A DNA stretch of 63,839 nucleotides, counting the filler, from Kipferlia bialata (taxonomy: Eukaryota), in the NCBI GenBank assembly GCA_003568945.1. It is 5 parts of 5 records of this genome, joined end to end, with 100 filler letters (N's around TTAATTAATTAA, not from the genome) between each part and the next. Parts side by side here need not be neighbours in the genome. Positions count along the whole stretch, not along the records: positions 1 to 16,571 come from BDIP01000591.1; 4 more parts are not named here. One strand, 5' to 3'. The notes beneath the pieces are model-generated. The model searched no databases. It worked only from the letters and a program-made list of their open reading frames with translations, and had not been told where the DNA came from. A program made the translations under genes and the position numbers. Below are positions 2,174 through 16,517 of this stretch, piece after piece (the stretch's first letter is position 1; each line of letters begins with the position of its first letter).

Positions 2174-4808
2174 ATGGGTGACCGTGCGTCTAACCGTACG
2201 TATCTGGCCGGCCACCCCGAGCTAAAGGTACACCTACTGCACTATCACTATAGTACTCTCTATAGTATTCCATGCTGATGTATGCTCATCCCCCAGGTGT
2301 TTGTGACCTCAATGGTGGCAGCCCTGATCTCTAGGCGGCCTGATGACCCCCAGAGCTATATATCTGAGTGGGTCAGGACCCCTGGTCTCTGTGACCACAT
2401 TGCTAGACAGGTATATACTATACACACATAGTGAAACATTCTACATTGCAGCCTGACATAGGGTGCTATGTGTATCTGTCTTTGTGTGTGCTACCAGTCT
2501 TTCTGGTATCTACCCTTCTTCTCTGCATGCAATGTTGCCAGGCAGGTGTATAGTGTAGACTTACTATACTAACTCCCATCCAATACTGTGCACCAGACAC
2601 TAATATCGCTTTCTCTATACTTTACAATTAGTGTGTACGACTTCTCACTCAGCATCAGTATCAGCATCTACCACTTCCCACTCTGACTCACCTGCAGAGA
2701 GTATATTTAGTTAGTATTGTGTATATGTATATAGTTTAATAATAATAGTATTACATATATATTAATACATATATGTATACATATGCATGTGTATATATAC
2801 CTTTGCCTCTTTATTTATAGGTATGAGCAGGCAGCTGGACAGACCTCAACCAGAGGGGCATATTCTCTTCCATTATATAGGATCACATAGTATATAGTAT
2901 ACATCAACTAATGTGTTACTTATATATAGGTGGGAGCAGGAGATATGTATAAATGTCTATGAATCCATCTTTACCTCATCATCTCTTATCCTGTAGGTCG
3001 GTGCTGGTAGCTGGATAGACCTCCTCAAGCAGAGAGGTGTGTACGTTGACCCAGAGCCAGAGCCGGAGCCCACACCTGAGCCATCAGTGCCGGAGAGCGA
3101 GGGAGAGGCCACTGAGGAGGTATATATATATATTATATACTATTGTATATCGATAGATATATATATATATATATATATACCTGAACATCGGCACCAGAGA
3201 GCGAGGGAGAGGCCATTGAGGAGGTATATATCACATATATCATATATGAAAGACCAAGGAAACGGATAAACGATGGTAGTTGTTAATGTTGTCTAACTCG
3301 CAGATTTCAGAGGCCTCTTCTGACGAGGTTGCTCTGTCCAGGTCGGGGTCTAGGGGACCCAGTAGGCCCGGATCTAGGTATGTATATAAATCAATGTCCT
3401 TTCATATTTTCTTATCTCGCGACAGATGAATCAATATCATTTCTATTTCTCATAACTCTCCATTCTCGCTACAGGCTAGGGTCTAGGTATGGAGTGGACT
3501 TCAACACCTAAGCATTGAAATCTGACTCCTTTATGTGTTTCTTATACCAGGCCAGGCTCCAGGAGCATGAGGCGGGGCAAGAGCATGGGGGCCATAGCAA
3601 GGTATACATTGTATAGTAATATACCAACTATTGTGCTTATATACCCCTTCCTTTCTCTCTCAATGTGAGCATGAGGTGGGGCAAGAGCATGGGGGCAATA
3701 GCAAGGTTAGTATTGGGATGTATGTGAAATGCATATTGTTATTATACCCAAAGCTATTTGTTAGTGTTACACTGCTATTGATTATGTGGGGCAAGAGCAT
3801 GAGGGCCATAGCAAGGAAAGAATACATATATTTATACCGCTCCTCTCTCCATGTCTTCCACCTTTTCCCTCTCTCATAATGTATATGTGTGTCTTTACAT
3901 GATTCTTTTTCATATGGATTCCGTCTCTAATCCTGCAGGAGGGGCAGCACTCTCTTTGGTACAGAGAGCACAGGGAGTATGTCAAGGTATGTTCAGTGAT
4001 GTATCAGTACATTCTTTTACCGGCTCGGGAGGCTATATCCCCCCCCCCCCCTTCCGACCATCCCCCTCCTCGCATATCCATTTCATTCCAAGAAGCGGGA
4101 CTCTCCTCTGGCTCTCACAATGGCAACACTAGCTCTCTGTCTTCTGCTAACCAATAGGCGTGGTAGCACTCTCCTTGGCTCTGACACTGGCAACAGTCGC
4201 TATACGCTCTCTCTCTATTTATCTTTTTGTCTTACCCATAGGCGTGGCAGCACTCTCCTTGGGTCTGACAATGGCAACAGTGGCTGGATGCGGTCTCTCT
4301 CCCTGCCCTGTGTCAGGGACAGTGGCAGAGTGGTCATGGAACAACTGAGTAATAGCCTAAAGTATAAGGTATGTATATATATATATATATATATAGTGTA
4401 ATATAGTATATATATAGTATAATGTGGAACATAAGTCTATGTACATTTGTATATATTCATTGTTTCTAAGACAGTGGCAGAGTGGTCATGGAACAGCTCA
4501 GCAATAGCCTGAAGTATAAGGTACATATCGGTATATGTATATTGTGTCTTGTCATTATTTTTGCTAAGCATCAGGATACTAACACACCCTTCTTCTGCCT
4601 TGTGCCTGACCTGGCTACTATGGCATACAGTGCCCCACTCGCTGTGGCACGGTTAGCGGCGTCGCTAGCACTCTTAGGTTCATTGGTGTATATATATATT
4701 GGGGTGTATACGTATGGCATTCAGTGCACCACTGGCTGTGGCCAACCTGGCAGCATCACTTGACTTGATAGGCTTCACCCAGAAGGACCATGTGGATGAC
4801 CATGAGTA

Positions 4809-4859
<51 letters not shown>

Positions 4860-5515
4860 CCATATTCTAATTATTAACCCTAGGTGGCGGTGTCTTCACC
4901 CAGAAGGACCATGTGGATGACCATGAGTGCGAGGATGCAGTGCCACTGATACACGTTCAGGTGTGTATATAGATATAGTATTTATACTATATATATATAT
5001 ACTTAGTGTATACTATGTAGTGTTGTCTTCAATTTGTACAGTACCGCACCCCTCTTTATTCTTACCTTACCACCAGGCCGGCAACCTCCTATGTCCCTAC
5101 CCATCACCCACAATCATCGGGGGAGACACAGGTACATAGAGTGTATATATAGAGTGTATATATATGTGTATACTAGTACATACATATGAAATATTCAACC
5201 TCCTCTGCCCCTAACCATCACCCACCATCATCGGGGGAGACACAGGTATGTATAGTGTGGATATCATCTTGTTTTCACCAGAGCACATAGATATATGTAC
5301 TATATAATATATGAATAGTATAAAACACTATATACTGACCTCAGGTAGTGGTGAATGGGACGACACCGCCACCCTCGGATGTATAGAGCACATAGATATT
5401 ATAAGTATACTATACTATAACAATGTGTATACTTTATAGTACTAATACCCAGGAAGCGGTGAATGGGACGACACAGCCACCCTAGGGTGTATAGAGCACA
5501 TACCCCTGACTATAG

Positions 5516-15500: not shown

Positions 15501-16377
15501 GTGTAGTATAATGATTGTGTGTGATGTATCTATCCCCAAACTCCCAGGTCCAGGACCCCAAGATATCAGTATCAGAATATATATAAGTCTATATCTAATA
15601 TTTGTTTCAGTATCATACTATATACCTCTACCCCCCAGGTCCAGGACACCAATGCAGCTGTGGTGTATTTGTGTCTTGGGTGTAGTTATAGTATAGTGCA
15701 CATGCATTCAATAGTTGTATGTCTAACCCCCCAGGTCCAGGACACCAATGCGGCTGGGGCCAGTTCAGATGGACCCATGCCCAGTGAGATAGGTATGAAT
15801 GTTAAGTATATACCTATATTGTCCCTCTGTACCAGATACCATATTGCGATACATCTCCCTGTTGTATGTCCTCTCAAATGTCTCCTTATGCAGGCACTGT
15901 CCCAGCCCTGGCTGGGAAGTACATATCTACATACCTCTACATGAACTATTCTCACCCGTAGACACTGTCGCAGCCCTGGCTGAGGAGTACCGCATCCACA
16001 CATTTACATGTATATATAGACTATTATAGATAGATAGATATCTCTGTGCAGTCTCCTAAATTAGGTACTGTTGCAGCCCTAGCTGAGGAGTACCGTATCA
16101 TTATAGATATACGTATATATATATATAGAGAGAGAGGTATATAAGTCTAATGCAGGCACTGTTGCAGCCCTAGCTGAGGAGTACCGTATCATTGTAGATA
16201 TATGTATATATATATAAGAGAGAGAGAGAGAGAGAGAGATATAGAGAGAGAAATATATATATATAGAGAGAGAAGTCTAATACAGGCACTGTTGCAGCCC
16301 TTGCCGAGGAGTACCGCATCCCCGAGGCTGCAATGAGTAATGAGGTGGTCATACTCACAGACTACCTGATGCTGAAG
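2174..16377 (+). CDS. Large multi-exon protein: N-terminal RIIa/Dpy-30-type docking domain (RIIAD1-like) plus degenerate 5'-nucleotidase/metallophosphoesterase-like fold; 3' end cut by contig end
   Basis: Exons 1-2 read MGDRASNRTYLAGHPELK/VFVTSMVAALISRRPDDPQSYISEWV. Later exons LIHVQAGNLL, ISGIGYMELCYGLK, LFVASNL, TTARSFRETFPG, LLAGVGLVFDCANP, VVILTDYL occur in the same order as 5'-nucleotidase N- and C-domain motifs. Only a subset of exons was traced. Confidence 0.6.
7261..8644 (+). repeat. Exon-echo array: five copies of the 3' end of exon 7261-7338, then four copies of the 5' end of the exon starting at 8532
   Basis: GCCACATC..GGTGGAYGAG|GTAT ends at 7338 (real), 7479, 7580, 7705, 7824, 7977. 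CTAA..CCAG|AT..TCCTCCAAGTGGGT starts at 8062, 8156, 8272, 8394, 8532 (real). Confidence 0.95.
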
Positions 16378-16517
16378 GTATTGTATGTGAATGAGTCTTA
16401 TCGTGTGTTGAGCCTTCCATTGTCATCATGGAGTTTCTTGGGTTTTCCCACTCATTGCCATTATCTATTTCTCTCTCGTTCTCTCCTGTCCTCTCACACA
16501 AGCGCAGGTGTGGTCAA

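What the first reader, a model, noticed from the sequence alone, without database searches (positions are those of the whole stretch)
2800..16400. 'Exon echoes': introns built from serial partial copies of the flanking exons, with strict polarity
Seen: many exons of the 14-kb gene are flanked by 1-5 copies of 25-60 nt of their own ends, separated by (TA)n/(CT)n spacers. Copies of the exon START keep branch point+AG and lie UPSTREAM (e.g. ~5345, 5452, 5560, 5647, 5749 before the real exon at ~5862; 8911/9013/9178 before 9305). Copies of the exon END keep the GT donor and lie DOWNSTREAM (e.g. after 7338, ~10871, ~13256, ~15313). The exon-derived parts stay well conserved while the spacers are unalignable. 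Inference: a systematic intron-growth and splicing architecture. The spliceosome must join the outermost donor to the outermost acceptor past many intact-looking decoys. I know of no standard feature type that names this.
Basis: partly seen in the sequence, partly recalled or inferred. Interest (0 to 1): 0.95.

Follow-up and report, generated by a model that had tools for sequence, protein, structure and literature searches.

The report
Mirage-like exon-edge echoes in a protist
Most introns of several genes of the free-living protist Kipferlia hold stacked copies of the neighbouring exon's edge with its splice signal, skipped in the RNA examined and of a kind known from lancelets as "mirages", but here the copies differ from the exon mostly at silent positions, which likely means they are refreshed from other alleles and would be a genomic trace of recombination in a group where sex has not been observed.

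Summary
The echoes are real: 127 local exon copies in six Kipferlia bialata genes (about 1 expected by chance), in 54 of 85 introns; 126 follow the stated polarity. DNA contigs run through them. One spliced RNA contig uses only exon-proximal sites at 8 junctions, skipping 14 intact decoys that score like real sites.

The type is not nameless: it matches amphioxus "mirages" and human F7/CBS junction minisatellites, and this scan met mirages before in many animal genomes. Polarity follows from the geometry of tandem duplication.

Echoes differ from their exon at 5.6% of 0-fold but 27.9% of 4-fold sites (14-kb gene: 3.6% vs 32%). Their non-silent changes look neutral, so they are probably not translated. 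Simulated clonal exchange gave ratios of 0.34-0.66; exchange between homologues reached 0.12-0.36, covering the overall 0.20 and approaching the 14-kb gene's 0.11. Best reading: tolerated junction duplications, repeatedly re-templated from diverged alleles of the working exon. That step is inferred and needs a second isolate.

The parts
2174..16377 (+). Host gene 1 (deposited KIPB_003179, P0121; RIIa-like N-terminus inferred from relatives), 35 exons in the window, cut by the contig end at 16571; 66 echoes, in 25 of 34 introns
   Evidence: last exon 16286-16377 from RNA
2827..3223 (+). Exon 2997-3119 with one acceptor echo (2827-2858) and one donor echo (3179-3223)
3667..3815 (+). Two donor echoes of exon 3551-3601 (second has lost GT)
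4095..4520 (+). Exon 4242-4368 with two acceptor echoes (4095, 4158) and one donor echo (4461-4520)
4713..4807 (+). Fused copy: end of exon 4575-4677 joined in frame to the start of exon 4884-4960, no intron between, 9 nt missing at the joint
5196..5245 (+). Near-whole copy of exon 5077-5131 with GT but without AG
5345..5801 (+). Five acceptor echoes of exon 5862-5971, all with AG
6004..6121 (+). Donor echoes of exon 5862-5971 (6004-6040 abuts an N gap, possible overlap artefact)
6242..7114 (+). Echoes of exons 6357-6431 (6242 acceptor, 6495 donor), 6693-6749 (6840, 6994 donor) and 7261-7338 (7092 acceptor, AG lost)
7436..7977 (+). Five donor echoes of exon 7261-7338, all with GT; mosaic synonymous variants
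8062..8438 (+). Four acceptor echoes of exon 8532-8644, all with AG, shared breakpoint
8752..9526 (+). Donor echo of exon 8532-8644 (8752); three acceptor echoes (8911, 9013, 9178) and one donor echo (9481) of exon 9305-9390
9937..10133 (+). Decayed donor echo of exon 9794-9887 and two decayed acceptor echoes of exon 10210-10315 (splice dinucleotides lost)
10611..11179 (+). Two acceptor (10611, 10719) and two donor (10948, 11054) echoes of exon 10812-10872; acceptor echo 11158 of exon 11271-11335
11690..12876 (+). Donor echo of exon 11573-11619; two acceptor echoes of exon 12020-12141; three acceptor echoes and one donor echo of exon 12682-12796
13334..13913 (+). Two donor echoes of exon 13146-13256 and four acceptor echoes of exon 13974-14075 (three with AG), all skipped in the RNA contig
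14120..15663 (+). Donor echoes 14120-14150, 14433-14467, 15371-15423 and acceptor echoes 14976-15007, 15639-15663, each inside an intron that the RNA contig splices out whole
15894..16190 (+). Four acceptor echoes of exon 16286-16377, all with AG and all scoring above the real site; skipped in the RNA contig
37935..49370 (-). Host gene 4 (deposited KIPB_003192, P0122, kelch-repeat protein), 27 exons, 39 echoes
60497..62845 (-). Host gene 5 (partial hand model, 5 exons), 8 echoes
33537..37210 (+). Host gene 3 (hand model, 13 exons) with echoes in three introns, one before the first modelled exon, and three copies of the last exon's end behind its stop codon (37010-37210)
20960..23587 (-). Host gene 2 (hand model, 9 exons), three echoes around exon 22364-22272
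191..203 (-). Acceptor echo of exon 147-61 of the gene at the window's left end

Best explanation
The echoes are short tandem duplications across exon-intron junctions that the sampled RNA splices out by using the site next to the whole exon, and their exon-derived parts are likely kept similar to the exon by repeated unequal exchange with diverged alleles of the working exon, not by being translated. Steps. (1) Shown: units of about 110 bp made of an exon edge, its splice signal and intron sequence, stacked in the adjacent intron. (2) Inferred geometry: a duplication across an acceptor leaves the truncated copy upstream, across a donor downstream, so polarity needs no dedicated machinery. (3) Shown for 8 junctions, major isoform only: the first donor after an exon and the last acceptor before an exon are used although decoys score as well; inferred: cross-exon definition or an equivalent exon-proximal rule makes the duplication harmless. 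(4) Inferred: once one echo exists, echo and exon misalign between homologous chromosomes, and crossover or conversion inside the 30-60 nt of homology adds or removes units with the same breakpoint and overwrites echoes with exon sequence from other alleles. Selection acts only on the exon, so echoes receive silent allelic variants, collect random changes between refreshments, and the spacers, which have no selected template, drift apart.
For: Real DNA: run X1 holds 0.94 of sampled words of 4100-14000; its contigs cross echoes in 13945-15820 with no other letters and no joint that skips a unit, and the 37-nt exact repeat forms its own contig at depth 993 beside 462-516. Splicing: RNA contig of 3849 nt, six GT-AG joints at the modelled sites plus two loose ends matching only the real exons at 13225 and 16287; 14 intact decoys skipped, 10 scoring at or above the real site; over all echoes acceptor 8.6 vs 8.1 bits, donor 9.3 vs 9.9, other intronic AG/GT -1.8/-2.2. 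Coding-lineage origin of differences: 160 of 2871 0-fold vs 224 of 802 4-fold sites differ, ratio 0.20, array bootstrap 0.14-0.27, gene 1 0.07-0.17, reversed in the wrong frames; echo-echo 6.7% vs 29.4%; variants shared by several echoes but absent from the exon: 23 4-fold, 6 2-fold, 1 0-fold; four echo pairs with homologous spacers: 2 of 112 vs 13 of 37; GC at 4-fold sites 0.61 in echoes, 0.60 in exons, spacers 0.27; 0-fold changes run GC to AT (74:35), 4-fold do not (77:86); the two kinds of change are uncorrelated across 119 echoes, rho 0.095. Not translated: 8 stops in 165 changed codons (4.9 expected if neutral), 2 of 13 indels in frame, BLOSUM mean -0.32 vs -0.55; use of an echo site keeps the frame open in 7 of 98 cases. 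Array growth by unequal exchange: breakpoints within arrays differ by a median of 3 nt, between arrays 11; 6 of 13 informative site pairs fail the four-gamete test. Toy simulations: clonal exchange 0.34-0.66 in 12 settings, exchange between homologues 0.12-0.36 in 9. Context: metamonads lack NHEJ and fornicates have two Dmc1 paralogues in place of Rad51A (PMC8516963, passages).
Against: No exchange event or second allele was seen: X1 shows no other letters in 1.9 kb (contigs drop variants, one sample). Matching gene 1 needed allelic 4-fold diversity of 0.20-0.29 in the simulation, which is extreme. Outside gene 1 the bias is weaker and does not exclude 0.5: gene 4 ratio 0.36 (0.24-0.58), other genes 0.53 (0.18-1.17). 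Conversion within 30-60 nt at about 88% identity is short for eukaryotic homologous recombination (own knowledge). The four-gamete count is small and can include recurrent mutation. Simulations are simple (fixed copy number, all 0-fold sites lethal, N = 250). RNA covers 8 of 34 junctions of one gene, as one contig that cannot show minor isoforms. X1 may be the source of the assembly, so it is not independent. The first duplication's mechanism is not shown.
Confidence: 0.6

Rival explanations
1. Single-lineage snapshots: each echo is a one-off duplication that preserves an older version of the exon and then decays; no exchange between alleles is needed. Expected 0-fold/4-fold ratio about 0.5.
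For: Simplest model. Fits gene 4 (0.24-0.58) and the smaller genes (0.18-1.17). Neutral spectrum of non-silent changes. Same reading as earlier finding e1-7880682 for an urchin array.
Against: Gene 1 ratio 0.11 (0.07-0.17), 28 of 31 arrays with p4f above twice p0f; binomial test against 0.5 over all echoes p = 3e-19, not corrected for shared history. The model predicts that silent and non-silent divergence rise together; rho is 0.095, and 52 echoes with no 0-fold change still differ at 20% of 2- and 4-fold sites. Clonal simulations stay at 0.34 or above.
Confidence: 0.17
2. Echoes are under direct purifying selection because they reach the protein: as minor splice products, or because frequent deletion or conversion swaps an echo into the exon, making them a reserve of interchangeable exon ends.
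For: Very low 0-fold divergence even between echoes with homologous spacers (2 of 112 against 13 of 37); missense changes slightly milder than neutral (-0.32 vs -0.55, 1.6 s.e.).
Against: RNA contig has no echo letters over seven exons and its offset leaves 83 nt before the ATG, no room for upstream echoes. Stops and frameshifts are not depleted; 91 of 98 echo sites would break the frame. No DNA joint skips a unit. Rare swapping into the exon is part of the best model and was included in the clonal simulations without reaching the observed ratio.
Confidence: 0.13
3. Echoes are selected decoys that tune splicing (for example by loading the spliceosome or slowing it), as the first reader's 'splicing architecture' suggests.
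For: Echo splice sites are as strong as real ones and the branch-point zone stays similar to the real site.
Against: Copies also follow a stop codon; numbers per intron are unpaired, 31 of 85 introns have none, and six other gene models hold 2 copies in 31 introns; 9 of 62 acceptor and 7 of 53 donor copies have lost the dinucleotide; a splicing role would not explain codon-phase conservation. Exchange with the real junction also explains intact signals.
Confidence: 0.07
4. Assembly artefact: diverged haplotypes stacked in tandem.
For: Silent differences with unalignable introns look like alleles. Two copies abut N gaps and are identical to their exon. X1 may be the source of the assembly.
Against: 0.94 of sampled words are in separately assembled contigs; single contigs of 103, 480 and 1646 nt cross echo-spacer junctions with no other letters and no skipping joint; truncated exon-to-spacer junctions would exist in no haplotype; up to five different copies per side; higher-order units with homologous spacers.
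Confidence: 0.03

Closest known systems
Amphioxus 'mirages' (Adh3, globins BflGb6 and BflGb9, troponin C, PGBD5); PMC3087553 and PMC3902484, passages read; the original Adh3 paper (Canestro et al. 2002) was not held and not seen
   Same: Tandem duplications spanning an intron-exon boundary, at both 5' and 3' boundaries; many but not all copies keep AG/GT; splicing undisturbed; units of similar size (60-160 bp in globins and PGBD5); unequal crossing-over proposed.
   Different: Reported at a handful of loci in cephalochordates; BflGb6 units are 81-100% identical. Here: a metamonad protist, 54 of 85 introns in six genes, spacers mostly unalignable, and differences strongly synonymous ('synonymous' and 'silent' do not occur in the main text of PMC3087553). 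Copy-number polymorphism, shown in amphioxus, is untested here.
Human exon-intron junction minisatellites: F7 IVS7 (37 bp), CBS IVS13, 6-16, LMNB2 (100 bp), PDGF (81 bp); PMC1557585, passages read
   Same: Donor reiterated downstream; only or mainly the most upstream donor is used.
   Different: Rare single loci, donor side, F7 pseudo-sites strictly identical with only 4 bp of exon; here both sides, 13-63 nt of exon, diverged units, most introns of some genes.
Concerted evolution of duplicates by gene conversion; PMC3924837, passages read
   Same: Shared polymorphism between copies; conversion confined to coding parts kept similar by purifying selection while non-coding flanks lose homology.
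   Different: Described for whole duplicate genes or pseudogenes; here 30-60-nt intronic fragments 100 bp from their exon.
Intron gain by tandem duplication of an exonic AG|GT (Rogers model; cited in PMC3087553; PMC4974935 seen as search listing only)
   Same: Short tandem duplication near a splice signal.
   Different: That model creates an intron that begins with the downstream exon's start and ends with the upstream exon's end (inference from the model), the opposite order to the one here; echoes enlarge existing introns.

Membership tests
Amphioxus-type mirage | Tandem copies of a segment spanning an exon-intron boundary, lying next to the source exon | tested here: met
   127 adjacent copies vs about 1 by chance; 114 adjacent vs 3 non-adjacent at score >=30
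Amphioxus-type mirage | Both donor and acceptor boundaries can be duplicated | tested here: met
   66 upstream and 61 downstream copies
Amphioxus-type mirage | Many but not all copies keep AG/GT | tested here: met
   AG 53 of 62, GT/GC 46 of 53
Amphioxus-type mirage | Normal splicing is not disturbed | tested here: met
   8 of 34 junctions of gene 1, one RNA contig, major isoform only
Amphioxus-type mirage | Minisatellite-like units, alike over their whole length (81-100% in BflGb6) | tested here: not met
   Only 4 of 56 within-array spacer pairs exceed the 99th percentile of background, 14 the 95th; similarity fades 15-20 nt from the splice site. Hence filed as a mirage-like variant, not as a strict member.
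Amphioxus-type mirage | Copy number varies between haplotypes or cells | not testable with these tools
   Both runs found are of one sample and kept as contigs
Tandem-duplicated (mutually exclusive) exons | Whole exon copied with both splice sites and used alternatively | tested here: not met
   Median copy covers 42% of the exon; 1 of 127 nearly spans an exon and lacks AG; RNA uses none at 8 junctions
Rogers-type intron gain by tandem duplication | Intron starts with a copy of the downstream exon's start and ends with a copy of the upstream exon's end | tested here: not met
   Donor copies precede acceptor copies in every intron that has both, bar the protein-repeat cross-hit
Mobile intron-forming elements (introners) | One sequence family repeated at unrelated sites | tested here: not met
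   Each copy matches only its neighbouring exon; 105 of 108 non-low-complexity direct repeats lie under 500 bp apart. Tested in this window only.

The most novel reading that the evidence does not exclude
In Kipferlia, mirage-like echoes are a genome-wide system in which each exon edge keeps a stack of recent allelic versions of itself, refreshed by recombination between homologous chromosomes. One clonal genome would then archive population-level synonymous diversity of 20% or more and give direct genomic evidence of sex or parasex in a free-living metamonad, and show exon-proximal (exon-definition-like) splice-site choice in a short-intron protist with a reduced spliceosome.
Probability: 0.45. 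Interest if true: 0.72.

Novelty: new variant of a known kind. Interest (0 to 1): 0.5.

Why it matters
The anatomy is known, so this is not a new class of element. Three things remain of value. (1) Splicing: a protist with short introns and 87 of 174 surveyed spliceosomal proteins (PMC6679479, passages) picks the exon-proximal site past decoys of equal strength, which intron definition would not predict; the genome holds a large natural set of competition substrates. [quoted passage not shown] If the synonymous bias needs exchange between homologues, the echoes make that question testable from one genome and decisively with a second isolate. (3) Annotation: echoes mislead gene callers (the deposited model ends in an echo) and may help fragment this assembly. 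The same 0-fold/4-fold test can be run on the animal mirages this scan has already collected.

Tried and rejected
No whole genome is held for this window, so there is no genome-wide count. Only 13945-15820 was laid with runs; 26 of gene 1's 34 junctions and all other genes are untested by RNA. No listed holder was on record as RNA; X2 is read as RNA because its contig skips GT-AG introns. An automatic gene finder took many echoes as mini-exons and was replaced by mapping deposited proteins. Three hits were dropped before the divergence counts (127 to 124): the protein-repeat cross-hit and two weak hits in 3' flanks. Inside-out (nested) splicing of paired decoys: rejected, donor and acceptor numbers differ per intron. 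Weaker echo splice sites as the reason for skipping: rejected. cDNA origin of echoes in general: rejected, they keep intron signals; of 18 junction-spanning alignments only 4713-4807 looked convincing, most others reflect AG|G likeness. Microsatellite at the breakpoint as a rule: only twofold enriched. Pfam gave nothing useful for gene 1; three distant full-length relatives match in short stretches only, too few to compare echo residues with orthologues. Literature: ten searches listed no paper on such repeats in Kipferlia or another protist, nor on synonymous bias in mirages, judged from listings; in the main text of the K. bialata genome paper (PMC5874029; passages and section 12) 'duplicat' and 'heterozyg' do not occur; its supplements were not read. 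The original mirage paper was not held and may already describe exon-part conservation.
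Full report
Source and gene models. A protein read from 59095-60258 is 100% identical to a deposited Kipferlia bialata TSR1-like protein, and single exons of the two echo-rich genes retrieve deposited K. bialata proteins P0121 and P0122. The window is a chain of contigs joined by N-flanked spacers; the 14-kb gene is cut at 16571. 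P0121 maps exactly onto 35 exons and P0122 onto 27, one intron with a GC donor. Four more genes were chained by hand into open frames. In all, 85 introns were examined.

The observation. A self-comparison gives 108 non-low-complexity direct repeats, 105 of them under 500 bp apart, against one inverted repeat. Aligning each exon to its gene's introns gives 127 copies next to their exon at score 26 or more; control alignments to other genes' introns predict about 1. Of these, 66 lie upstream and copy the exon start, 60 lie downstream and copy the exon end or nearly the whole exon, and one is a cross-hit between two exons of an internal protein repeat. AG is kept in 53 of 62 and GT/GC in 46 of 53 anchored copies. 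Units are about 110 bp; each adds about 104 nt to the intron. Density varies: 54 of 85 introns in these six genes, 25 of 34 in gene 1, but 2 copies in 31 introns of six other, unverified gene models.

Not an assembly artefact. Run X1 holds 0.94 of the sampled words of 4100-14000. Over 13945-15820 its contigs cross echoes and spacers with no other letters and no joint that skips a unit; the one exact 37-nt repeat forms a contig of depth 993 beside 462-516 (contig depth is a rough figure, and X1 may be the assembly's source). Two copies beside N gaps may still be overlap artefacts.

Splicing. One 3849-nt contig of run X2 skips six GT-AG introns exactly at the modelled sites. Its loose ends match only the real exons at 13225 and 16287; the echoes have 4-7 and 2-8 mismatches. 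So at 8 junctions the outermost sites are joined, past 14 intact decoys of which 10 score at or above the real site. The contig offset leaves 83 nt before the ATG, and the share of words expected from exons alone, 0.128, fits the 0.12 observed. Echo sites are as strong as real ones overall, so strength does not decide; position next to a whole exon does. Cross-exon definition is the likely rule (inference). Minor isoforms cannot be seen in a contig.

Polarity. A tandem duplication across an acceptor must leave the truncated copy upstream, and across a donor downstream (inference). Copies also follow the stop codon of gene 3, and donor and acceptor numbers per intron are unpaired. Polarity therefore shows local tandem duplication plus tolerance, not design.

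The synonymous bias. In 124 echoes, 160 of 2871 0-fold and 224 of 802 4-fold sites differ from the exon: ratio 0.20, bootstrap over 75 arrays 0.14-0.27; gene 1 0.11 (0.07-0.17), gene 4 0.36 (0.24-0.58), others 0.53 (0.18-1.17); shifted frames reverse it. Echoes differ from one another in the same way (6.7% vs 29.4%), and variants shared by several echoes but absent from the exon are 23 4-fold, 6 2-fold and 1 0-fold. Four echo pairs whose spacers are homologous differ at 2 of 112 vs 13 of 37 sites. The 4-fold sites keep exon-like GC (0.61 vs 0.60; spacers 0.27) with balanced flux, while 0-fold changes drift to AT; the two are uncorrelated across echoes. The non-silent changes look neutral: 8 stops against 4.9 expected, 2 of 13 indels in frame, near-neutral BLOSUM mean. 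Two processes are thus overlaid: silent differences that arose in a coding lineage, and light random decay in the echo.

Mechanism. A copy that merely preserves an older version of the exon gives a ratio near 0.5. Forward simulations with selection on the exon only gave 0.34-0.65 (six clonal settings, single runs) and 0.48-0.66 (six settings, three runs each, range 0.39-0.85) without exchange between chromosomes, and 0.18-0.36 and 0.12-0.16 with it; the last set reproduces gene 1 (p0f 0.03-0.04, p4f 0.23-0.33) but needs allelic 4-fold diversity of 0.20-0.29 (an analytical version is). Shared breakpoints within arrays (median difference 3 vs 11 nt) and mosaic variants (6 of 13 site pairs incompatible) fit unequal exchange inside the short homology. 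Metamonads lack NHEJ and fornicates carry two Dmc1 paralogues instead of Rad51A (PMC8516963, passages), a plausible setting but not a test. Against: no second allele is seen in this sample, the required diversity is extreme, the tracts are short, and only gene 1 firmly excludes 0.5. I put the full model at 0.6; its first half (real duplications, exon-proximal splicing) is close to certain.

Comparison with what is known. [quoted passage not shown] Human F7, CBS, 6-16, LMNB2 and PDGF carry donor-spanning minisatellites with use of the upstream site (PMC1557585; passages). The scan's index holds 327 notes with the word 'mirage' in at least 48 genomes (some refer to the Mirage transposon); the eight shown were animals. 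The Kipferlia arrays meet four mirage features, fail whole-unit likeness, and could not be tested for copy-number variation. Conversion limited to coding parts of duplicates is established for whole genes (PMC3924837; passages). Ten paper searches listed nothing on such repeats in a protist or on their synonymous bias; the original mirage paper could not be read.

Verdict. Observation confirmed; interpretation partly supported. A new variant of a known kind: mirage-like junction duplications at very high density in a distant lineage, with a codon-level signature that likely records exchange between alleles. Interest 0.5; 0.72 if the allele-archive reading holds.

Noticed in passing
window 15962-16026 vs 16286-16377: The deposited protein P0121 ends by splicing into the echo at 15962 and running to a stop; the RNA contig uses the real exon at 16286, so the deposited C-terminus is likely a mis-annotation at the contig end.
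   Followed up: yes
window 4713-4807: An in-frame, intron-less copy of an exon-exon junction sits inside the intron between those two exons, 9 nt short at the joint; a similar weaker case by eye at 46073-46030 (minus). Could be a deletion fusing two echoes or a cDNA-templated repair.
   Followed up: partly
window 37010-37210: Three copies of the last exon's end, with its stop codon, lie behind gene 3; echoes are not limited to splice junctions.
   Followed up: partly
window 42433 (minus) and 35291 (plus): GC-AG introns: one required by the deposited protein P0122, one chosen in my hand model of gene 3; the genome paper counts only GU-AG introns.
   Followed up: no
window 23700-31400 and 49985-60323: Genes here have short introns and almost no echoes (2 in 31 introns of six unverified models); what makes a gene echo-rich is unexplained.
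   Followed up: partly
window 3475-3486: A 12-nt segment with AG before and GT after, in frame with both neighbours; the deposited model skips it. Micro-exon or old echo, not tested.
   Followed up: no
window 2174-16377: Gene 1 has three distant full-length relatives (1052-1305 aa) matching in short stretches, one with a weak RIIa domain at the N-terminus; no known family.
   Followed up: partly
window 20960-23587, 33629-36955, 60497-62845, 61-1107: By recalled motifs, not by a call: a PP2C-like phosphatase, an archaemetzincin-like zinc protease, a CCCH zinc-finger protein and a BOP1/ERB1-like protein.
   Followed up: no
window 18405-18460 and 24103-24150: Short ordinary tandem repeats (about 18 and 12 bp units) inside probable introns, unrelated to exon edges; seen by eye.
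   Followed up: no
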